Source: a virus
Lineage: Duplodnaviria > Heunggongvirae > Uroviricota > Caudoviricetes
Virus record (IMG/VR): IMGVR_UViG_641736163_000007
Span: 1-33,144 of that record
Length of the DNA: 33,144 nucleotides
Strand: one strand, 5' to 3'
A program made the position numbers and the translations under genes. This document shows positions 4,582 to 31,295 of the stretch, piece after piece; the first letter of the stretch is position 1, and each line of letters begins with the position of its first letter. The notes under the pieces are model-generated. The model did no database searches. It was given only the letters and a program-made list of their open reading frames with translations, and had not been told where the DNA came from.

Positions 4582-5100
4582 TCACAGGCCGATATTGCGG
4601 CGGTGTTGCTCCAGCCGGTCGACGCCGTTCACCTTCTCAATCATGTTGATGGTGTCAATTTCGACCAGCTCCTTACCGTCCATCGTCAGCCGGAAATAGG
4701 TGCAGACCACGGAGATTTTCGACTCGGTGTCTTCTCCCTGTTTACCCTCGCCGGTGTCGATTTCTTTCTGACGGCCACGCATGACCACCTCGACGGCCAC
4801 CGTTTCGCCGGTATCGTCACGCTGGTAAGAGCCTGCAAAACGAATCGGCACGGCATCCACACCGGTTGCGGCGTAAAGCTCCCAGATAACCGAATCCGGG
4901 AAGCCCCCGAGCGACCACTCCATTGACAGCGCATCGTCATCAAGGCCGAGGTCTACCGGTGCGCTTCCGTTCATCCCCGCACCGCGATAGTTTTCGAATT
5001 TACGGGTCAGTTTTGGCAGCGTGACGGACTTTGCAACGCCCTGATAGCTGTAGCCGTTCAGAAAGACGTTCATTAACTTGAGTTTGCGCGGCATTGCCAT
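4582..5100 (-). CDS. FII: Tail tube protein
   Basis: 172-aa ORF directly after sheath gene; size and order match P2 gpFII. Confidence 0.9.
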   Translation of the reverse strand: MAMPRKLKLMNVFLNGYSYQGVAKSVTLPKLTRKFENYRGAGMNGSAPVDLGLDDDALSMEWSLGGFPDSVIWELYAATGVDAVPIRFAGSYQRDDTGETVAVEVVMRGRQKEIDTGEGKQGEDTESKISVVCTYFRLTMDGKELVEIDTINMIEKVNGVDRLEQHRRNIGL

Positions 5101-21180: not shown

Positions 21181-21372
21181 TGAGCAAGAAAAAAGGGAAA
21201 ACACCGCAACCTGCGGCAAAAAAAATGACCGCCAGCGCCCCGAAAATGGAGGCATTCACCTTTGGTGAGCCGGTGCCGGTACTCGACTGCGTATTACCGT
21301 GAAGGAGATCGGTGAGTAACATCGATGGAGATCGGTTCGTGTCACTTTCACAGAACCGTTTTTAAATTACCT

Positions 21373-22122
21373 TCACTGATCTCCTTCGGTCAACGGAGAT
21401 TGTATTTTCCGCATTGATTCTCCTTTAAGTTCGATCTTGATACTGCCATGAACCAGTCGATCTAGGATGGCATCCGCATGTGTGGAGTCTCCGATCATTT
21501 TGTACCAGTTTTCCACCGGCAACTGGCTCACTACGATGATTGAGCCTCGTTGGTACATCAGATCCACTATTTCCAGCAGGTCGCTACGCTGTTCTGATGA
21601 GAGAGGTTCCAGCCCCCAGTCATCCAGAAGCAGCAGATCGCTATTATTCAGCCTGGTCAAAAGTTTGCTGTATCTTCCATCAGCATGCCCCTGATAGCAC
21701 TGTTCCATCAGCGCTTTAAGGCGATAATAGTAGACCTTGTATCCCTGTCGGCAGGCATTATGACCAAGTGCACATGCCAGGAACGTTTTACCGCTGCCGG
21801 TGGCCCCGGTCAGTAAAATATTTTGTTTCAGGGTTAACCAGTTTCCCTGACTGAGTGAACGGATGAGGGCCCTGTCCAGCCCTCTATTGTTACGATAATC
21901 CAGCTTTGATAACTCAGCATTAAGTCTGAACCGTGCATGTTTGATCAGACGCTCTGCCTTCCTGTTTTCACGGCAGGTTAGTTCTTCTGCTGTCAGTAAT
22001 GACAGGCGTTCTTCGAAGCCCAGCTCCTGGTATGTGCCCGGCTGAGCAAGTTGCTTTTTAAGCGCATCACGGAAGCCGGTGAGTTTAAGTGCGGTCAGTT
22101 GTTCGTAAAGATGATTCATCAT
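21373..22122 (-). CDS. istB: IS21-family helper ATPase IstB
   Basis: 249 aa with Walker A GATGSGKT and Walker B LLLLDDWG; follows istA. Confidence 0.9.
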   Translation of the reverse strand: MMNHLYEQLTALKLTGFRDALKKQLAQPGTYQELGFEERLSLLTAEELTCRENRKAERLIKHARFRLNAELSKLDYRNNRGLDRALIRSLSQGNWLTLKQNILLTGATGSGKTFLACALGHNACRQGYKVYYYRLKALMEQCYQGHADGRYSKLLTRLNNSDLLLLDDWGLEPLSSEQRSDLLEIVDLMYQRGSIIVVSQLPVENWYKMIGDSTHADAILDRLVHGSIKIELKGESMRKIQSPLTEGDQ

Positions 22123-22133
22123 TGGATCCCGTA

Positions 22134-23675
22134 TCAGTGGTAATACTCACTGCCGCGTACGTTTTCGTGTTCCATCGTGGATAACAGATCTGGTTTTGGA
22201 TCCTGAACAGGTTGTTTATCCAGACCTTTTTCCAGGATCGATTTAATACCTGACAGACGCCATACCTTTGTTTTCAGAGCTCTTGCACATGCTGCATTAA
22301 GTCTGGCTTTACTGTATTTTTTATGAAGGTTCAGGAGTCCAAGGCAGAAGCGATAGCTTTGTTCCGGATGTGGACGAGAGTTCAGTATATGAAGCACATA
22401 ACTATGAGTTTCACTGCCTATGTGCCCCGCCCATTCCAGAAGACGCTCTGGCGTCCAGGTGGCATGCTGTCGATGAGCTTCAGGCATGTGCTCGTTGCGG
22501 GTACTGTAGCCATAAGTACGCTTGCGCGGGTGCACAGCAACCTCCTGCCCCTGATTGAAGAGTCTTACCAGTTCTCCGGAGATCCATGCTTCCAGTTGCT
22601 GGCCTAACAGCGAACATGGAACCGAGTAGTAATGTTTGTCGATTTCCACGTGGTAATCGGCATGAACTCTGACTTTCTTCACCAGGGTGTAACTGTAACT
22701 GGCTTCAGGAAGAGGCTTCAGTGCGGGTTTATCAAGCTGGATGAAGAGTTCTGCACGTGAATAACCCAACTTCTGCATTATTTTGTTATTCAGTCTTTCC
22801 AGCAACTCCCGAATGCGCTGATTAAGCGATGCAAGGCTGTAGAAGATCTCATGCCTGATTCGGGCCATGATCCAGCGTTCAACAACCTGAACGCCAACTT
22901 CAGCTTTGGCTTTATCTTTCGGTTTACGTGGCCGCGCAGGCAAAACTGCGACATTATAATGCTCAAGCATCTGCTGGTAGGTAGGGTTAACGTCAGGATC
23001 ATACTTACATGCCCTGGATGTGGCGCTTTTCAGATTGTCCGGAACAACAAGTTCAGGAACGCCACCCAACCACTGGAAGCAGCGAACATGACTCATCACC
23101 CAGTCTTCAAGCTGCTGAGACCAGGTGGCCTCTGCCCATGTGTAACTTGATGCCCCGAGAACAGCTACGATGACCTGAGCAGTTCTTATTTCTCCGGTCT
23201 CAGGGTCGGTAACGCCAACGGTAGGTCCACAGTAATCAACGAAAAGTTTTTCGCCAGCTTTATGTACCTGACGCATTGATGGTGAAGTGGTTTTGAGCCA
23301 TTCACGGTACATCCGGCAGTAATGGTTATAGCTGTAAAAACCGCCTGGATTACGCTCACAGTATTCTTCCCAGAGTAGCTGCAGCGTCACGCATTTATTA
23401 CGCAGTTCCCGGTGTACTGTAGCCCAGTCAGGCAGAGAGTGCTTCTTCATCTTAACCTGGGTCTGAAGGAACGCATGTTTTAGTTTTGTATCATCCCATC
23501 CTGTAGGTAAGGGCCACTGCTTTATGCCAAGTTGAGCCGCCCGATTAGCATATCTGGATACAACGGAAGGGGAGATTGCAAGACTACGACCAATTTGTCG
23601 ATGGCTGAGTCCAACACAGTATTTAAGCCTAAGAATTTCTTTAAGTTTTCTCATAGAAATTGGAACTGTTGGCAT
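22134..23675 (-). CDS. istA: IS21-family transposase IstA
   Basis: 513 aa, N-terminal HTH-like region, upstream of istB in the same orientation. Confidence 0.85.
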   Translation of the reverse strand: MPTVPISMRKLKEILRLKYCVGLSHRQIGRSLAISPSVVSRYANRAAQLGIKQWPLPTGWDDTKLKHAFLQTQVKMKKHSLPDWATVHRELRNKCVTLQLLWEEYCERNPGGFYSYNHYCRMYREWLKTTSPSMRQVHKAGEKLFVDYCGPTVGVTDPETGEIRTAQVIVAVLGASSYTWAEATWSQQLEDWVMSHVRCFQWLGGVPELVVPDNLKSATSRACKYDPDVNPTYQQMLEHYNVAVLPARPRKPKDKAKAEVGVQVVERWIMARIRHEIFYSLASLNQRIRELLERLNNKIMQKLGYSRAELFIQLDKPALKPLPEASYSYTLVKKVRVHADYHVEIDKHYYSVPCSLLGQQLEAWISGELVRLFNQGQEVAVHPRKRTYGYSTRNEHMPEAHRQHATWTPERLLEWAGHIGSETHSYVLHILNSRPHPEQSYRFCLGLLNLHKKYSKARLNAACARALKTKVWRLSGIKSILEKGLDKQPVQDPKPDLLSTMEHENVRGSEYYH

Positions 23676-24806
23676 AGGTATCCTTTACCGGAATGGCAAA
23701 AGATACAGATCAACACACCTGTGAAGTTCCAATAACATTGATGGAGATCACTGAATAACAAAATGAGTCAAAAGTGATCTCCATCGATGTTATTCAGCGA
23801 TCTGTTCAAATGTTATTACCCGATCTCGATGGAAGTTATTGAGTGATCTCCTTTCATGAAAATACGCACTCGACCGCCGTGACATTCTGGATTACGTCGA
23901 GTGCATCAGTAACGGCAGATGGTATGAGCCACCGGTCAGCTTTACCGGTCTGGCAAAAAGCCTGCGTGCTGCCGTGCATCACAGCTCACCGATTTACGTC
24001 AAACGTAATATTCTGGCCTCGACATTTATCCCGCATCCGTGGCTTTCCCAGCAGGATTTCAGCCGCTTTGTGCTGGATTTTCTGGTGTTCGGTAATGCAT
24101 TTCTGGAAAAGCGTTACAGCACCACCGGTAAGGTCATCAGACTGGAAACCTCACCGGCAAAATATACCCGCCGTGGCGTGGAGGAGGATGTTTACTGGTG
24201 GGTGCCGTCCTTCAACGAGCCGACAGCCTTCGCGCCCGGTTCCGTGTTTCACCTGCTGGAGCCGGATATTAATCAGGAGCTGTACGGCCTGCCGGAATAT
24301 CTCAGCGCCCTTAACTCTGCCTGGCTGAATGAGTCGGCCACGCTGTTCCGCCGCAAGTATTACGAAAACGGCGCACATGCCGGATACATCATGTACGTCA
24401 CCGATGCCGTGCAGGATCGCAACGATATCGAAATGCTTCGCGAAAACATGATGAAGTCGAAAGGCCGCAACAACTTTAAAAACCTGTTTCTCTATGCCCC
24501 GCAGGGGAAAGCCGACGGCATTAAAATTATCCCGCTCAGTGAAGTGGCGACGAAGGACGATTTTTTTAATATCAAAAAAGCCAGCGCCGCTGACCTGCTG
24601 GACGCGCACCGCATCCCTTTTCAGTTGATGGGAGGCAAGCCGGAGAACGTCGGGTCGCTGGGCGATATTGAGAAAGTGGCAAAGGTCTTTGTCCGCAATG
24701 AGCTTATCCCGTTACAGGACAGGATCCGCGAGATAAACGGCTGGCTCGGTCAGGAGGTCATCCGCTTTAAAAACTACTCACTGGACACTGACAACGGCTG
24801 AACATC

Positions 24807-24970: not shown

Positions 24971-24989
24971 GTGCTTTCCCCGCCTCGCC
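24971..24989. other. cos site (cohesive end sequence)
   Basis: gtgctttccccgcctcgcc is the reverse complement of GGCGAGGCGGGGAAAGCAC, which I recall as the 19-nt P2 cohesive end; lies between Q and the A-side accessory genes as expected. Confidence 0.7.
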
Positions 24990-25116
24990 CGCCCGCTTCA
25001 TGGGGCGGTTTTAATGCAGTTGCATGATTACCCCAGAAGCGCGAAGGCACCCTTCCTTAGTTACAGCTGCGATGACATTTACTGCATGCATTTTAATGCA
25101 GCTTCACGCAACATAA

Positions 25117-25977
25117 TCAACAATAAGGATAACGATTTAAAATTTCATCTTCTTGATACCCCAGATAGTGAGACATCAATCCAATTGATGGTCTCGTTAT
25201 AGGGCTATCTATCAACGGATAACGAACCTCTAAATCCTCAAATTTTAAAATTTTCACATAGCCTTTGACCTTTTTCTTATTAATTAGAGATTCCGAATAC
25301 TCTGGAAAATTTTTTAATAAAGAGTAAATATCCATAATCAAACCATCTATCATCAACATAAGTCTCTCACTAACATCAATATAAAACGCAGCATCATTCG
25401 CACCTATAATATTGACAATATCATCATTCTTCATTCGAGATGACGGCACCGGAGAGCCTGCAGCAGAAATTATTTTACCTCTACACTCTTTATCGAATTC
25501 ATTCCTTAACTTTATAGCCTCCAATAAACTATTATATCGTCTTAGCACATCTTCAATAACAATAATATCAAGCTTCTCCGCTTCATTACTGCCTGACTCA
25601 CCGACCTTCCCCTCTCCTTCAGAAATAAGACAAGTCAATTCACTCACATCTATAGATATAGGCGCCCCATAAATAACCACCACTGGAAACATTAAAGCTC
25701 TCTCAATTGGATTGGTACTTGCACAAACCCCCTTGTAATAATTACTTTTCACTTGCAACAGAGTTGTCAAGGCTGAGAAAAGCTTACACATAGATTGATT
25801 TACAACATCTATTTTTTTCTTTTCGGCCTTAACATTTTCTTGCCTATTAAAAACCCTAATGGATATAAAGTAACTTAAAAAAGCTGACAGCATCGGAAGC
25901 AATATAGGAAGAATATAATTTTTAACAAAAGCCATACTTCCATCAATACCACCAATTACTTCAATTCTTGAGTCCAC
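25117..25977 (-). CDS. Hypothetical membrane-anchored protein, cargo at the tin/old position (start may be ATG at 25935)
   Basis: 286-aa ORF in very AT-rich DNA, where an open frame this long is unlikely by chance; one N-terminal hydrophobic helix followed by a Lys-rich stretch, suggesting a cytoplasmic C-terminal domain; no family recognised. Confidence 0.7.
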   Translation of the reverse strand: MDSRIEVIGGIDGSMAFVKNYILPILLPMLSAFLSYFISIRVFNRQENVKAEKKKIDVVNQSMCKLFSALTTLLQVKSNYYKGVCASTNPIERALMFPVVVIYGAPISIDVSELTCLISEGEGKVGESGSNEAEKLDIIVIEDVLRRYNSLLEAIKLRNEFDKECRGKIISAAGSPVPSSRMKNDDIVNIIGANDAAFYIDVSERLMLMIDGLIMDIYSLLKNFPEYSESLINKKKVKGYVKILKFEDLEVRYPLIDSPITRPSIGLMSHYLGYQEDEILNRYPYC

Positions 25978-26011
25978 TGGATAACGTTCCTCTTCTCGCC
26001 ATCTATTTTTA

Positions 26012-26218
26012 TTAAAAAGCAGTTATTGTTCTATTGCAGCGTTCTGTCGCAACTTTCAAAGCATCGCGACCATCACTTAAGTACGGATATGAACCAATAT
26101 CTTTAAAATATTGAATACCTCTGCTTACACATTCTTCAACATCTTTTTTATGTCCATTATCACAACCAGACAACAGAAAAGTCGCAATAACAATTATGTA
26201 AAAAGCATTTTTATTCAT
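26012..26218 (-). CDS. Small putative lipoprotein (68 aa)
   Basis: MNKNAFYIIVIATFLLSGC: basic n-region, hydrophobic core, lipobox LSGC; two further Cys in mature part; AT-rich; directly upstream of the 286-aa gene. Confidence 0.6.
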   Translation of the reverse strand: MNKNAFYIIVIATFLLSGCDNGHKKDVEECVSRGIQYFKDIGSYPYLSDGRDALKVATERCNRTITAF

Positions 26219-26270
26219 TTCAATGATAATTCCTTTTATTTTAAATAAAATCATGTTCGACCGATGATAC

Positions 26271-26276
26271 ATTATA
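26271..26276 (-). promoter_or_regulatory. Candidate -10 hexamer (TATAAT) for the lipoprotein/286-aa cassette
   Basis: Perfect TATAAT on the minus strand about 55 nt upstream of the lipoprotein ATG, just after the A stop; no good -35. Confidence 0.3.
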
Positions 26277-26298
26277 AACAATCAGTTTAGTATTGTTC

Positions 26299-28572
26299 TT
26301 ACGGGCAAGTAAATCCCGGCCACTCATCAGCGACCGGATACATGAATTTTTTCCCGTCATAATTTACGGTCGCGCCACGAGCCAGCGCCTCAAGCTCCCA
26401 TCGCTGCGGCCTGATACCGTTCTGAGCAAGGTCAACGCGGATACGGGTAATTTGCATTCGTTCCGACCGGGTCAGTCTGGCCGATGGTGCAATTTCATGC
26501 GGTTTTAACGGGCTTCCGTTTCTTTGCTGACGATTTGGCGTTCTCAGCCCGTGTTTTAATGCGCCCCTGAGCGCCTTCACGACCTCCGGGTCATTCCATT
26601 CGATAACACCATCATCAACCAGATTAAGCACTGCTACGGCGTGCTCAGAAGGTGTGGGAACCGGTAACGAAGTATCACCACCGGTGAGCTTTCCACAGTT
26701 ATTGACAGGACTCCGAGGCGCGGCGATGCCGCTTTTTAAAGTCAAAGGCTCAACGACAGGAACTTTCGGCACAATGCGCCAGTCCGTGGTTCTGGTGATA
26801 TGAATATGACGCGCGCCGAGATGCGGCGCGTAAATGCCGACCACTCTCTCGACTTCTTCCTCGTACTCGTTAACGTCATCCGACGGACTACGGGCGACCC
26901 TGACAGTCTGACAATCGCGCGGGACATTTGCCCCACCCTGCGCGCTGATATACAGCGCAAAATCGCCACTGTCTGCGGCAGCGCGTGCAGCCTCGACGCG
27001 TTCGTCAAACTCATCAGCAATGCTGACGCCGCGAGGTAATTTGCGTAGTTCACGGTAAGCCCCCATTGTCGGCAGGCCAACAGTTTTAAATTGCGGAATA
27101 CGCCACGTTGACGCCCATGCGGTAACAGCCGCGGCAGTGTCTTTCAGCGGCCTGCCGGTATCGTTATCGAGCTGACCATCCAGTGCATAGCCGTCGATGT
27201 TTTTTGAAATGTATTTCGCGATATATCCCGCAGCACCGCCCCGGTTAAGGTGTTTTGCCTGAAAACGGTTTCGCGCGGCTCCTCTTTCGTCGCCATCCTC
27301 TTTGAGCGCATAGCGACGCATGATTTCGATAATCTGGTTACGCTGGCGTGGATGACAAAAAAGCATCATATGCCAGTGCGGCGTTCCGTCGTGGTGTGGC
27401 TCGACGACACGCAAACCGTAGACCTGTAAATCATTATCTTTGAATGCCGTGCGCATCAGGCTCCAGATATGGCAGAGATAACGCTGCGCATCCTTTGGAT
27501 TAAATGCCTCATCGTTCCAGCCGTGATTTAGCTGGACGGTTTTACTTTCGCCTTTTCCGACCTGACGTGTCGGGTGATACTTTGACGGCGCGGTCAGCGT
27601 GATAAACATCCCCACATCGCCCTCTGCGGCGGCGTAACGCTCAATACCGGCAATGGTGTTCATCAACTCCATCCGACGAATTTCAGGATTAGAAATACTG
27701 CCCATCACCTTACTGATAAGGTCGATGCGCTCGCCGGTTTCCCTGTTTTCGAGGTCACACGATTTAAGAAATTCCAGATTTGCCTGGCGGCGTGCACGCA
27801 CATCACGAATGGCGTGTTTACTGGCATAAGGAGAACGGTCTTTATTGACCTCCCCTACAGCAATCAGTAACGCCTCATGCCAGCGCATACGCTGGCCTTT
27901 AAGCTGATGAGTCCACCACTCATCGTTAAACAGGCGGGCAATGGCAGAATATGCCTGCCTCGTGGTCATCTGTCCTTTACGGTATTTTTTCCAGTAGAGC
28001 GGGGAAATATTGAAAGCACGTGCAGCGCCAGCAACATGACCATACAGGTGAGCCTGCGCCTCATCCGTAAACAGCGATTCTTTTTCGCCATGCGCATCCA
28101 CCCAGGCATCGCTGAGTTCCTCATACATCATGAAAAGCTGCGATGAGATACGGGCGGCAAACTTTTTCAGCTCCTTGTCATTCATTCCAGGCAGGCGCGC
28201 ATAATGGTCACGCTCTGCCAGAAACAGCAACGACGCGTCGGTGTTCATTTCATGGCGCTGATTCACGCGCTCAATGCGCGGCCATAAACGACGCTGAAAA
28301 GTGGATGTGAGGAAATAAAACCCGTGCACCGGGCTTTTATTGCGCCGGATGTAGTCATAACGTGAAGTAAACAGCGAGCGCAAAAAGTAAGGCAGACGGT
28401 TAATCGTGGATAAAACACCTTGCACCTGACGCATCTCGTCACGTGTAAGGGGTCTTTCGCGCCCGACAGCCTCGCGTGGCGCGTTCCATGCATAAGCACC
28501 GGTAAACGCCTTACCGGTGCCTGCAGCAAATGCTGACGGAGGGACAAAACGCCCGGAGGCTTTAACGGCCAT
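26299..28572 (-). CDS. A: Rolling-circle replication initiator (endonuclease)
   Basis: About 757 aa from the MAVKASG start; the track ORF starts 14 codons upstream; HUH motif (PHWHMMLF) and tandem tyrosines (YIAKYISK). Confidence 0.9.
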   Translation of the reverse strand: MAVKASGRFVPPSAFAAGTGKAFTGAYAWNAPREAVGRERPLTRDEMRQVQGVLSTINRLPYFLRSLFTSRYDYIRRNKSPVHGFYFLTSTFQRRLWPRIERVNQRHEMNTDASLLFLAERDHYARLPGMNDKELKKFAARISSQLFMMYEELSDAWVDAHGEKESLFTDEAQAHLYGHVAGAARAFNISPLYWKKYRKGQMTTRQAYSAIARLFNDEWWTHQLKGQRMRWHEALLIAVGEVNKDRSPYASKHAIRDVRARRQANLEFLKSCDLENRETGERIDLISKVMGSISNPEIRRMELMNTIAGIERYAAAEGDVGMFITLTAPSKYHPTRQVGKGESKTVQLNHGWNDEAFNPKDAQRYLCHIWSLMRTAFKDNDLQVYGLRVVEPHHDGTPHWHMMLFCHPRQRNQIIEIMRRYALKEDGDERGAARNRFQAKHLNRGGAAGYIAKYISKNIDGYALDGQLDNDTGRPLKDTAAAVTAWASTWRIPQFKTVGLPTMGAYRELRKLPRGVSIADEFDERVEAARAAADSGDFALYISAQGGANVPRDCQTVRVARSPSDDVNEYEEEVERVVGIYAPHLGARHIHITRTTDWRIVPKVPVVEPLTLKSGIAAPRSPVNNCGKLTGGDTSLPVPTPSEHAVAVLNLVDDGVIEWNDPEVVKALRGALKHGLRTPNRQQRNGSPLKPHEIAPSARLTRSERMQITRIRVDLAQNGIRPQRWELEALARGATVNYDGKKFMYPVADEWPGFTCP

Positions 28573-28837
28573 ATGAGCCAAAAGCCTCTGAACAACGCCT
28601 GCTGAGTTGCTCAACCTGCGCGTTTAAATCGGCAAAAGACTTTGCGCTTCCGGTCAGAATATCGTGATGCATCAGGCCGGAAACGAGCTGGCTTAATTTC
28701 GGGTAATAACCAACCACCGCCAGCCATTCCTGACCGGCGTTTTTACCGCTTTCCGCTCTCTTTTTCTCGTGGAGAATAAACTGAAAGCTGTCACTGGTAA
28801 CGACATAACGTTCGCCAATTTCAATACGAATACTCAT
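28562..28837 (-). CDS. Hypothetical early protein (P2 orf83-like position)
   Basis: 91-aa ORF overlapping the A start, normal GC. Confidence 0.6.
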   Translation of the reverse strand: MSIRIEIGERYVVTSDSFQFILHEKKRAESGKNAGQEWLAVVGYYPKLSQLVSGLMHHDILTGSAKSFADLNAQVEQLSRRCSEAFGSYGR

Positions 28838-30649: not shown

Positions 30650-30844
30650 ATGAATAATCAAAATATTGACGAACTTATAACCACTCTCGAAAAAGCGGTT
30701 GCATTAGCAAATACCCTACCAACTCCAATGGGAGATTTTGAGGACGCTAAAAAAGTGGATGAATTAACTATTCAATTAAGAGAGATCATTCACCCTAAAA
30801 AGCCAGTCCAACTCAAAGGCTTTATTGATATAAATCATTTTTAA
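30650..30844 (+). CDS. Hypothetical small protein (64 aa), opposite orientation to early operon
   Basis: ATG preceded by GAGGTAATAA; AT-rich; upstream TGgTAAGAT -10-like element and a CCATGT-N5-ACATGG palindrome. Confidence 0.45.
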   Translation: MNNQNIDELITTLEKAVALANTLPTPMGDFEDAKKVDELTIQLREIIHPKKPVQLKGFIDINHF

Positions 30845-31286
30845 AATAGCATCTTGCATCCGTATGCTGTTTATACGGATGCGTCATCATGTCAAAAATA
30901 CTTTTCCAGTCATCAAGCCCTATTGACCATTTAATACTATTTATATCGCCTGATTTAGAAATTATCGTTTCACGAAGAGCCTTAGCGAGTTCCATGCGCT
31001 CTTGAACGGTCATACCAACGCATTCATATTTAATGCGCAAAAAAGAGTCATGAAATAAAGATTTCAAATTCAGCCGTAGAATTTCTTCATCACCATCTGA
31101 ACTAATAAAAACAAGTTCATCATTATCCAAAATGATATTTTGTTTTCTCAATTCATCGGCTGATTTATATTCTTTCGTACTATTAGCAAACTCACTATAC
31201 GTAATAGTCAGGCTGTTAGATGGTGATGCATCTTCAAGGTTTCCTCTGATGATAGTCACCGATGTTTTATTTAAATCTTGCCTCAT
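30822..31286 (-). CDS. Hypothetical protein (154 aa), AT-rich insertion downstream of cox
   Basis: ATG preceded by GGAGGAG, 10 nt after the cox stop; acidic; no family recognised. Confidence 0.6.
   Translation of the reverse strand: MRQDLNKTSVTIIRGNLEDASPSNSLTITYSEFANSTKEYKSADELRKQNIILDNDELVFISSDGDEEILRLNLKSLFHDSFLRIKYECVGMTVQERMELAKALRETIISKSGDINSIKWSIGLDDWKSIFDMMTHPYKQHTDARCYFKNDLYQ
30856..30882. terminator. Perfect 10-bp stem hairpin (GCATCCGTAT-N7-ATACGGATGC) at the convergent gene junction
   Basis: Read directly; lies 12 nt after the plus-strand 64-aa ORF stop but inside the 3' end of the 154-aa ORF; no strong T-tract. Confidence 0.3.
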
Positions 31287-31295
31287 GGCTCCTCC

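What the first reader, a model, noticed from the sequence alone, without database searches (positions are those of the whole stretch)
24990..26298. AT-rich two-gene cassette (lipoprotein plus 286-aa membrane protein) occupying the tin/old position
Between the replication gene A and cos, where P2 carries orf91, tin and old, this element has about 1.3 kb of very low-GC DNA encoding a 68-aa predicted lipoprotein and a 286-aa protein with one N-terminal transmembrane helix and a probably cytoplasmic C-terminal domain. No OLD-family ATPase is present and I recognise no known domain. The cassette seems to have its own TATAAT promoter. Small phage lipoproteins are established receptor-blocking exclusion factors, and membrane-anchored proteins with cytoplasmic domains are common abortive-infection effectors, so this is a strong candidate for an undescribed defence or exclusion module. 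I cannot exclude that the 286-aa protein is a Tin homologue or the small ORF an orf91 homologue.
Basis: partly seen in the sequence, partly recalled or inferred. Interest (0 to 1): 0.8.

Follow-up and report, generated by a model that had tools for sequence, protein, structure and literature searches.

The report
Untested lipoprotein–membrane protein pair in P2 hotspot
A defective P2-like prophage carries, where phage P2 keeps its anti-phage genes tin and old, a conserved pair of genes (a tiny lipoprotein and a membrane-anchored helical-bundle protein) that match no known family, have never been tested, and are most plausibly a new phage-exclusion module, though that is not shown.

Summary
Between the stop of replication gene A (26299) and cos (24971-24989) lies 1.3 kb of 29-39% GC DNA. 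It carries two minus-strand genes: a 68-aa lipoprotein (26012-26218) and a 286-aa protein with one N-terminal membrane helix (25117-25977).

Neither gene is related to P2 Tin, Orf91 or Old. Neither matches Pfam, NCBIfam, PADLOC or any solved structure. Both match only PHROG families of unknown function.

The two genes are a real, co-evolving module. They stay adjacent and in the same order in four hotspot contexts in E. albertii, E. coli, Salmonella and Citrobacter, and both are under purifying selection.

A 52%-identical homologue sits in phage P2_AC1, next to the validated 2TM+1TM+TIR defence system. It was left out of the cloned construct, so it has been catalogued but never tested.

The 286-aa protein belongs to an unnamed family of about 205 clusters at 50% identity. 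Distant members are single genes in integron arrays, prophage ends, a plasmid cargo region, and beside Avs2, DUF4238 and PDC-S67. None has the lipoprotein partner.

Predicted topology puts the N-terminus outside and the C-terminus inside. The fold is a generic helical bundle. The lipoprotein has Asp at +2, which predicts inner-membrane retention and argues against outer-membrane receptor masking.

Function is inferred, not shown. The most likely role is phage exclusion or defence acting at the inner membrane (about 0.5).

The parts
26219..26298 (-). 80-nt AT-rich leader between the gene A stop and the lipoprotein ATG. It contains TATAAT at 26268-26273 and a roughly 30-nt block just after the A stop that is near-identical in the Citrobacter variant.
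   Evidence: Sequence. Alignment with E. coli and Citrobacter versions: the block GAGAACAATACTAAACTGAnTGTTTA is conserved but the TATAAT is not. It was not flagged by the promoter scan.
26012..26218 (-). Gene for a 68-aa prolipoprotein. It has a signal peptide and the lipobox LLSGC, with Asp+2/Asn+3 after the Cys. The mature protein is about 49 aa, with two further conserved Cys (C30, C61) and the invariant motif IGSYPxLSDGRDAxxVAxERCxR.
   Evidence: ORF. Alignment of 8 homologues. phrog_32041, E=7e-24. AlphaFold2 pLDDT 96-98 for residues 30-68, helix-loop-helix. dN/dS 0.18 against the Citrobacter version.
25978..26011 (-). 34-nt spacer with a purine-rich ribosome-binding site (GAGAAGAGGAA) before the GTG start of the second gene. 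In AC1-type loci the two genes are 2 nt apart.
   Evidence: Sequence. Gene spacing in L006-L010 and L003.
25117..25977 (-). Gene for a 286-aa bitopic membrane protein. It has a short acidic N-terminal amphipathic helix (predicted periplasmic), a TM helix at about 22-43, and a roughly 240-aa all-alpha helical-bundle domain (predicted cytoplasmic). Family-invariant residues are K77 and R93. Near-invariant residues are N60, Y80, P90, R158, E204 and D211.
24971..24989 (-). P2-type cos cohesive-end sequence. It marks the distal boundary of the hotspot.
   Evidence: Exact match to P2 cosR.
26299..28614 (-). Replication gene A (771 aa). It marks the proximal boundary of the hotspot. Its last roughly 25 nt recur as a relic upstream of the pair in AC1-type loci.
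   Evidence: ORF. Phage_GPA annotation of orthologues. Relic alignment.

Best explanation
This is an autonomous two-gene accessory ('moron') module carried in the gene A-cos cargo hotspot of P2-like prophages.

Gene 1 encodes a mini-lipoprotein. It is predicted to be tethered to the periplasmic face of the inner membrane, with a 48-aa domain that is probably disulphide-stapled. Gene 2 encodes a bitopic inner-membrane protein. About 20 of its residues face the periplasm, and a roughly 240-aa helical-bundle domain with a conserved cluster of charged residues faces the cytoplasm.

The most likely role is exclusion of, or defence against, other phages at the level of the inner membrane. This could be a block to genome entry, or a response triggered at the membrane and carried out by the bitopic protein. 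In that picture the bitopic protein is the core component, because its distant relatives work as single genes. The lipoprotein would be an accessory or periplasmic co-factor specific to this lineage.

Shown: gene structure, conservation as a pair, purifying selection, modular mobility, hotspot position, lack of any known domain, and a high-confidence all-alpha fold.

Inferred: membrane sorting, topology, interaction between the two proteins, expression in the lysogen, and the anti-phage function itself.
For: Position:
- The module sits exactly where P2 has tin and old.
- Rousset et al. 2022 showed this locus is a reservoir of anti-phage systems (PMC9122126).
- A 2026 preprint reports that 19% of P2-like phages have only genes of unknown function at this locus, and that 6 of 8 randomly chosen unknown loci from P4 satellites were protective.

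Module integrity:
- Lipoprotein followed by 1TM protein is found adjacent and in the same order in four contexts. These are: alone (window and pig ETEC); followed by a MauJ-like gene in Citrobacter; after an orf91-like ASCH gene in Salmonella and E. coli; and after 2TM+1TM+TIR in E. coli and phage P2_AC1.
- Both genes diverge in step (78% and 78% amino-acid identity). dN/dS is 0.18 and 0.14.

Core family:
- The exhaustive profile search found 205 clusters.
- Distant members lie next to Avs2 (1e-100), DUF4238 (1.6e-44), PDC-S67, DUF3800 and a DUF2806/Abi_alpha-like gene.
- Others lie in integron-type arrays with attC-like repeats, at prophage ends, and between a resolvase and a Tn3-family transposase gene on a plasmid.
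- A pooled neighbour scan also hit DRT, PDC-S58, PDC-S10, HEC-08, ApeA, PD-Lambda-5_B and NotI models.

Envelope location:
- The lipobox is conserved.
- The C-terminal flank of the TM helix has more K+R than the N-terminal flank in 83% of members. The C-domain has no conserved Cys.
- Some relatives carry a signal-peptide-like segment plus a 60-90 aa extension fused N-terminally.
Against: - No hit to any of 5027 PADLOC models for the window proteins, and none beyond three marginal single-member matches (E 0.0025-0.0043) among 72 family members.
- No enzymatic or pore-forming fold was recognised.
- In P2_AC1, the three-gene TIR construct without the homologue already reproduced the lysogen's protection against lambda and LF82_P8. 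The pair therefore added no visible phenotype on that 8-phage panel. However, the small ORF looks frameshifted in that record.
- Machine-learning scoring in the 2026 preprint predicts an antiviral role for only 15-32% of unknown P2 proteins.
- This hotspot also carries non-defence cargo such as partition systems and the CDT toxin.
- Several distant homologues sit among housekeeping genes.
- Expression in the lysogen is unproven, because the gene is on the same strand as the repressed early operon and no promoter is validated.
Confidence: 0.5

Rival explanations
1. The pair is a non-defence lysogenic-conversion cargo. It would benefit the host or prophage in another way, for example envelope-stress modulation, immunity to a periplasm-acting toxin or bacteriocin, host colonisation, or prophage maintenance.
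For: The same hotspot carries partition systems and cytolethal distending toxin. Most unknown P2 proteins are not predicted to be antiviral. There is no defence-model hit. Some distant homologues are embedded among housekeeping genes. Small periplasmic lipoproteins are a common form of immunity protein (my own knowledge).
Against: Distant homologues recur beside bona fide defence genes and inside integron or mobile-element cargo regions. No toxin or effector partner is ever linked to the pair. The family is absent from curated functional libraries.
Confidence: 0.25
2. This is outer-membrane receptor masking. The lipoprotein would reach the outer membrane and block a phage receptor, like T5 Llp or Cor on FhuA. 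The 286-aa protein would be a helper or an unrelated second factor.
For: It is a small prophage lipoprotein with a disulphide-capable mature domain. There is a weak PHROG match to Cor (phrog_1119, E=0.13). AC1-type variants have Asn rather than Asp at +2, so their sorting is ambiguous.
Against: The window and Citrobacter variants have Asp+2 with Asn or Asp at +3, which is the classical Lol-avoidance signal for inner-membrane retention (my own knowledge). The Cor, EexN and Lysis_col matches cover only the signal peptide and lipobox and fall far below cut-offs. Strict linkage and co-divergence with an inner-membrane partner argues that the two act together at the inner membrane.
Confidence: 0.08
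3. The pair is an accessory part of the 2TM+1TM+TIR system (Rst_2TM_1TM_TIR), as the grouping in Rousset Table S5B (system 94) would suggest.
For: In 14 of the 15 complete E. coli genomes with the AC1-type pair, it lies immediately downstream of 2TM-1TM-TIR. The 305-aa homologue is listed among the four proteins of catalogue system 94.
Against: The window, pig ETEC, Citrobacter, Salmonella and several E. coli loci have the pair without any TIR, 1TM or 2TM gene. The three TIR-system genes alone gave protection. A relic of the gene A 3' end lies between the TIR genes and the pair, marking them as separately acquired blocks.
Confidence: 0.05
4. The pair serves the phage's own life cycle. It could be a spanin-like lysis pair (lipoprotein plus helical membrane protein) or a factor acting at cos or in replication.
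For: The pairing superficially resembles an o-spanin with an i-spanin. There is a weak PHROG Rz-like hit on the signal peptide (E=0.042). The genes are on the same strand as gene A, immediately downstream, and could be read through from the early operon.
Against: The pair is rare and dispensable. It occurs in 4 + 15 of 5426 complete E. coli genomes, while hundreds of those genomes carry the P2-type cos sequence. It is absent from P2 itself. The charge bias predicts N-out/C-in topology, the opposite of an i-spanin. It lies far from the ORF block (about 13.9-16 kb) that, by P2 gene order, I took to be the lysis genes; I did not check this. Distant homologues lack any lipoprotein.
Confidence: 0.05
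5. The ORFs are spurious or decaying reading frames in AT-rich junk DNA.
For: The GC content is very low. There are no known domains. The host prophage is itself defective, with an IS21-family element in the portal gene.
Against: dN/dS is 0.14-0.18. The ORFs are intact across four genera. AlphaFold2 pLDDT is 90.7 for the large protein and 96-98 for the mature lipoprotein domain. The family spans 205 clusters with invariant residues.
Confidence: 0.02

Closest known systems
Phage P2_AC1 gp01 (305 aa, YP_010663721) plus the unannotated small ORF upstream of it; also listed within system 94 'TIR_2' in Table S5B of Rousset et al. 2022 (PMC9122126)
   Same: These are true homologues: 52% identity for the large protein and about 60% for the lipoprotein. 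They have the same gene order and the same hotspot position between gene A and cos.
   Different: In AC1 the pair follows the 2TM+1TM+TIR system, whereas in the window it stands alone. It was not included in the tested construct pFD240, so it has no assigned function. The AC1 record shows the small ORF split by a frameshift. The AC1-type lipoprotein has Asn rather than Asp at +2.
P2 tin and old (the canonical cargo of this locus)
   Same: They occupy the same locus between gene A and cos, are AT-rich, and are non-essential lysogenic-conversion cargo.
   Different: There is no sequence or profile similarity. The genes are on the opposite strand relative to tin and old. There is no ATPase or TOPRIM domain. 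These are membrane proteins rather than soluble ones.
Inner-membrane superinfection-exclusion proteins such as T4 Imm/Sp, HK97 gp15 and P22 SieA (recalled from my own knowledge, not tested here)
   Same: They are small phage-encoded envelope proteins without enzymatic domains that act at the inner membrane or periplasm. T4 uses two membrane proteins together.
   Different: No homology was detected to anything in PHROGs with a known function. The 286-aa protein has a large, conserved cytoplasmic domain, which is atypical for simple entry blockers. Single-gene relatives occur in non-phage contexts.
T5 Llp and Cor outer-membrane lipoproteins
   Same: They are small prophage or phage lipoproteins with extra cysteines.
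   Different: Similarity is limited to the signal peptide (Cor phrog_1119, E=0.13). Asp+2 predicts inner-membrane rather than outer-membrane sorting (plus my own knowledge). There is an obligatory inner-membrane partner gene.
Membrane-anchored abortive-infection proteins with cytoplasmic domains, for example lactococcal AbiP (recalled from my own knowledge; sequence not available here, not tested)
   Same: An N-terminal membrane anchor with a cytoplasmic domain of about 240 aa. They are single-gene units found on mobile elements.
   Different: Homology was not tested. No nucleic-acid-binding or other domain is recognisable.

Membership tests
P2 Tin | Sequence or profile homology to Tin (253 aa) | tested here: not met
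   Best BLASTP E-value 5.9. hhalign of the 72-sequence profile against Tin gave probability 0.1%.
P2 Orf91 (DUF3850/ASCH) | Homology to Orf91 or to the DUF3850/ASCH domain | tested here: not met
   No BLASTP alignment. hhalign probability 0.1%. No Pfam hit. True orf91-like genes occur as a separate gene upstream of the pair in Salmonella and E. coli loci.
OLD family nucleases | ABC-type ATPase domain plus TOPRIM nuclease domain | tested here: not met
   No Pfam, NCBIfam or PADLOC match for either protein. The model is all-alpha with only generic bundle matches.
Rst_2TM_1TM_TIR (Rousset 2022) | Presence of a TIR protein plus the 2TM and 1TM partner proteins (PADLOC models TIR-TM, 1TM-TIR, 2TM-TIR) | tested here: not met
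   The models hit AC1 gp02, gp03 and gp04 but not gp01. No hits for the window proteins. The hotspot in the window contains only the two genes.
Llp/Cor-type receptor-masking lipoproteins | Signal peptide with lipobox | tested here: met
   MNKNAFYIIVIATFLLSGC; the lipobox is conserved in 7 of 8 homologues.
Llp/Cor-type receptor-masking lipoproteins | Sorting to the outer membrane (no Lol-avoidance signal) | tested here: not met
   Cys+1, Asp+2, Asn+3 in the window, and Asp-Asp in Citrobacter. By the E. coli +2 rule (my own knowledge) this predicts inner-membrane retention. This is a sequence-based inference only; AC1-type variants have Asn+2.
Llp/Cor-type receptor-masking lipoproteins | Homology of the mature domain to Cor or Llp | tested here: not met
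   phrog_1119 (Cor) E=0.13, covering residues 7-25 only. EexN E=0.1, below its cut-off.
Llp/Cor-type receptor-masking lipoproteins | Binding to an outer-membrane receptor and an adsorption block | not testable with these tools
   Needs adsorption and receptor-function assays.
Spanins (Rz/Rz1-like) | An i-spanin with N-in/C-out topology and a periplasmic coiled coil, located in the lysis cassette | tested here: not met
   K+R bias is 3.57 on the C-flank against 1.92 on the N-flank, with C greater than N in 83% of 72 members. The locus is the A-cos hotspot and not the lysis region.
Colicin lysis proteins (Pfam Lysis_col) | Score above the Pfam gathering threshold of 27 bits | tested here: not met
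   15.5 bits, E=0.016, covering the signal peptide only.
HEPN-type all-alpha RNases | Rx4-6H motif in a four-helix bundle | tested here: not met
PHROG phrog_21267 / phrog_32041 (unknown function) | Significant full-length HMM match | tested here: met
   6.4e-88 over 5-285 of 286 aa, and 7.2e-24 over 9-68 of 68 aa. These families carry no functional annotation.
Anti-phage defence system (generic) | Experimentally measured protection against phage | not testable with these tools
   Only guilt by association is available.

The most novel reading that the evidence does not exclude
The 286-aa protein would define a new, widespread family of single-gene anti-phage proteins. The family has about 205 clusters at 50% identity across Gamma- and Betaproteobacteria, prophages, integron cassettes and plasmids. 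Its members are bitopic inner-membrane proteins whose cytoplasmic helical bundle, with a conserved K/R/R/E/D cluster, senses or executes the response. In P2-like phages the family would have recruited an inner-membrane-tethered mini-lipoprotein, so that events in the periplasm during phage entry are coupled to a cytoplasmic response. That would be a two-compartment sensing arrangement not described for known defence systems.
Probability: 0.3. Interest if true: 0.7.

Novelty: new variant of a known kind. Interest (0 to 1): 0.5.

Why it matters
The A-cos hotspot of P2-like phages is a proven source of new immune systems. About a fifth of these phages carry only unknown genes there.

This module is compact (1.2 kb), clearly delimited and under selection. 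It has confident structure models. It links to an unnamed protein family that recurs in integron cassettes and beside Avs2, DUF4238 and PDC-S67.

If it is protective, it would add a defence family with no known domain. It would also offer a tractable case of a periplasmic lipoprotein working with a cytoplasm-facing membrane protein. If it is not protective, it marks a class of hotspot cargo with another role. Either way, the finding corrects the catalogue entry that lumps the homologue with the TIR system.

Tried and rejected
- **Domain libraries.** Pfam, NCBIfam and PADLOC scans of both proteins, Pfam and PADLOC scans of 72 family members, and a Pfam scan of 10 longer family variants found no credible family.
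- **PDB sequence searches.** Profile searches for both proteins found nothing.
- **Tin and Orf91 homology.** Rejected.
- **Word-indexed protein search with the family profile.** It added nothing.
- **Genome scan with the full 72-sequence alignment.** It failed for lack of a conserved stretch. A 12-sequence sub-alignment worked.
- **Conserved partner of distant homologues.** All-against-all BLAST of neighbours found none. Only integron-type integrases recur.
- **attC finder.** My strict script found few sites. The inverted-repeat tool showed attC-like repeats flanking the gene in L021 and L035. I did not run a proper attC covariance model.
- **Literature.** Searches for accessions and PHROG ids gave zero papers. 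Motif searches in the supplements of Vassallo 2022, Darracq 2024 and the 2026 P2/P4 preprint gave no occurrence.
- **Complex prediction.** A model of the two proteins together could not be run with these tools.
Full report
**1. What is there**

The window is a P2-like prophage. The exact 286-aa sequence is recorded from Escherichia albertii.

On the minus strand, replication gene A (771 aa) ends at 26299. The 19-nt P2 cohesive-end sequence lies at 24971-24989 and is identical to P2 cosR. The finding's interval therefore spans exactly the A-cos gap.

GC content falls to 0.29-0.39 across 25100-26300, against 0.53-0.58 on either side.

Two minus-strand genes fill the gap:
- The first is 26012-26218, encoding 68 aa beginning MNKNAFYIIVIATFLLSGC.
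- The second is 25117-25977, encoding 286 aa from a GTG preceded by GAGAAGAGGAA.

NCBI's pipeline calls the same two genes, both as 'hypothetical protein', in a 98.4%-identical prophage of pig ETEC strains.

In phage P2 the same interval holds orf91, tin and old.

The one weak element is the promoter. TATAAT at 26268-26273 is real, but its -35 is poor and the consensus scan did not report it. Promoter-like matches in this AT-rich stretch are at chance level. The hexamer is not conserved in the 78%-identical Citrobacter version, although the 30 nt just after the A stop are.

**2. What it is not**

Neither protein resembles P2 Tin or Orf91, by BLASTP or by profile-profile comparison.

Pfam, NCBIfam and PADLOC give nothing above threshold. 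The only near-hits (Lysis_col, Cor, EexN, Rz-like) cover just the signal peptide and lipobox.

Both proteins do match PHROG families of unknown function: phrog_21267 at 6e-88 and phrog_32041 at 7e-24.

**3. The pair is a real, mobile, co-evolving module**

Close relatives of the large protein fall into only three 90%-identity clusters among 5.8 billion proteins. The lipoprotein falls into six. All are annotated as hypothetical, from E. albertii, E. coli, Shigella, Salmonella and Citrobacter.

In every locus recovered, the order is lipoprotein then 1TM protein, on the gene A strand, inside the A-cos hotspot. The company differs:
- alone (window and ETEC);
- followed by a 414-aa MauJ-like gene (Citrobacter and gut metagenomes);
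- preceded by an orf91-like DUF3850/ASCH gene (Salmonella and E. coli);
- preceded by 2TM+1TM+TIR (E. coli and phage P2_AC1).

Between the window and Citrobacter versions, both proteins are 78% identical. dN/dS is 0.18 for the lipoprotein and 0.14 for the large protein.

In AC1-type loci the two genes are 2 nt apart.

Upstream of the AC1-type pair there is a roughly 25-nt relic of the 3' end of gene A. This shows two things. The pair once sat directly after A, and the other cargo was inserted in between. The '94-aa' gene calls for the small ORF also begin in this relic, so the real product is the 68-aa lipoprotein.

The module is rare. The window type occurs in 4 of 5426 complete E. coli genomes and the AC1 type in 15.

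**4. Relation to published work**

Rousset et al. 2022 (PMC9122126) established the A-cos interval as a defence hotspot. They showed that phage AC1 protects its lysogen through a cloned three-gene '2TM + 1TM + TIR' system.

The AC1 genome carries a 52%-identical homologue of the 286-aa protein (gp01) next to cos. PADLOC models for the Rousset system hit gp02, gp03 and gp04 but not gp01. The construct pFD240 is listed with three genes and three proteins, the last being the TIR protein.

Their Table S5B nevertheless lists the 305-aa homologue among the four proteins of system 94, 'TIR_2', with 35 occurrences. The independent occurrences in section 3 show that this grouping is an artefact of adjacency.

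The homologue has therefore been catalogued but never tested. In the AC1 record the small ORF is unannotated and appears frameshifted.

No paper in the searchable library mentions the accessions or PHROG ids. The family motifs are absent from the supplements of three relevant screens.

**5. The large protein belongs to a wider, unnamed family**

An exhaustive profile search of 1.84 billion representatives found 205 clusters at E<=1e-3 and 121 at E<=1e-10. Most are 270-320 aa and align end to end.

All share the same architecture: a conserved N-terminal amphipathic segment (consensus xxAIxxLKQExxxxKDYxFPI), one TM helix, and a domain of about 230 aa. K77 and R93 are invariant. N60, Y80, P90, R158, E204 and D211 are nearly so.

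None of 72 members hits Pfam, PADLOC or PDB meaningfully.

Basic residues are enriched on the C-terminal side of the TM helix: 3.57 against 1.92 K+R, with C greater than N in 83% of members. The C-domain has no conserved cysteines. Some relatives carry a signal-peptide-like segment and a 60-90 aa extension in front of the N-terminal helix. Together these point to an N-out/C-in topology with a cytoplasmic bundle. This is an inference.

**6. Context of distant relatives**

A scan of one genome per species recovered 21 loci in Halomonas, Marinobacter, Marinomonas, Shewanella, Colwellia, Alteromonas, Pseudoalteromonas, Thalassotalea, Nitrosomonas and others.

No upstream lipoprotein and no conserved partner exist. 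The only recurrent neighbour is an integron-type integrase. attC-like inverted repeats flank the gene in two arrays.

Neighbours include:
- Avs2 (1e-100), DUF4238 (1.6e-44) and PDC-S67;
- DUF3800 and a DUF2806/Abi_alpha-like protein;
- in a pooled scan, DRT, PDC-S58, PDC-S10, HEC-08, ApeA, PD-Lambda-5_B and a NotI restriction enzyme.

The GajB and SspA/DndA hits in that pooled scan probably reflect housekeeping helicase and cysteine-desulfurase genes.

Other members lie next to an integrase and primase in a satellite-like element, at prophage ends, and between a resolvase and a Tn3-family transposase gene on an Erwinia plasmid. Some sit among housekeeping genes.

The picture is of a stand-alone accessory gene that travels with mobile and defence-rich DNA. 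The lipoprotein is an addition specific to the enterobacterial P2 lineage.

**7. The lipoprotein**

The lipobox is conserved. The mature 48-aa domain has an invariant core (IGSYPxLSDGRDA...VAxERCxR) and two conserved cysteines. It is predicted with pLDDT 96-98 as a helix-loop-helix.

In the window and Citrobacter versions, the residue after the lipidated Cys is Asp, followed by Asn or Asp. By the E. coli +2 rule (my own knowledge) this is the inner-membrane retention signal. AC1-type versions have Asn-Glu, so their sorting is uncertain.

It places both products at the inner membrane.

**8. Best explanation and rivals**

The best-supported reading (about 0.5) is a phage-exclusion or defence module acting at the inner membrane. 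The bitopic protein would be the core and the lipoprotein a periplasmic co-factor. Whether it blocks genome entry or triggers a membrane-based abortive response cannot be decided from sequence.

Evidence against includes:
- the absence of any defence-model hit;
- the fact that the TIR genes alone reproduced the AC1 lysogen phenotype;
- the modest prior for unknown P2 genes (15-32% predicted antiviral);
- the presence of non-defence cargo in the hotspot.

Rivals are:
- non-defence conversion cargo (0.25);
- outer-membrane receptor masking (0.08);
- an accessory of the TIR system (0.05, largely refuted);
- a phage life-cycle or spanin-like role (0.05);
- spurious ORFs (0.02, refuted).

**9. Verdict**

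It is a new, untested member of the well-known class of P2 hotspot cargo, built from two protein families with no known relatives.

It is a good experimental candidate but not an exceptional surprise, since many such unknown loci exist. Interest is 0.5.

Noticed in passing
window 21182-24801 (IS at about 21292-23866): An IS21-family element interrupts the portal gene Q. It carries istA (22134-23675) and istB (21373-22122) on the minus strand, with ends TGCGTATT...AATACGCA and a 6-bp direct repeat CTCGAC on each side. The prophage should therefore be unable to package.
   Followed up: partly
L009 6609-8911 (E. coli CP137765): A second, independent IS21-family insertion (rve plus IstB) lies between the 305-aa homologue and the portal gene of another P2-like prophage.
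   Followed up: no
L006 about 4995-5020; L003 about 4708-4733; compare window 26299-26330: A roughly 25-nt relic of the 3' end of gene A (GATGAATnGCTGGGATTTACTTA) sits just upstream of the AC1-type pair, downstream of the TIR or ASCH genes. It looks like a recombination scar marking how cargo blocks are stacked. It also explains the over-long 94-aa gene calls for the small ORF.
   Followed up: partly
L011 1025-1308 (phage P2_AC1, NC_070903): The small lipoprotein ORF is unannotated and split between two frames in the deposited AC1 genome. This is either a frameshift or a sequencing error.
   Followed up: no
window 26315-26338 (minus strand): A terminator-like hairpin of 10 pairs lies inside the last codons of gene A, overlapping the sequence that survives as the relic. 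Its T-tract is weak.
   Followed up: no
L021 5111-5213 and 6863-6929; L035 5901-5955 and 6877-6931; L028 3706-4692; L029 1322-3106: Distant homologues of the 286-aa protein lie in integron-like arrays. Integron-type integrases (Phage_int_SAM_4) are nearby and attC-like inverted repeats flank the gene. In L021 the unit between repeats also contains a 215-aa Ion_trans_2 protein.
   Followed up: partly
L037 6440-7684 (Citrobacter freundii prophage): A 414-aa protein with a weak MauJ match follows the pair before the portal gene. It is another uncharacterised hotspot cargo gene.
   Followed up: no
window 30650-31290: A second low-GC stretch (0.34-0.36) lies between the 118-aa ORF I took to be cox and the 166-aa ORF I took to be gene B. 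These identities come from position and from same-length Phage_Cox and Phage_RepB genes in related loci, and were not tested in the window. The stretch holds a 154-aa minus-strand ORF (30822-31286) with no tblastn match in 50,697 phage records. It may be a second moron site.
   Followed up: partly
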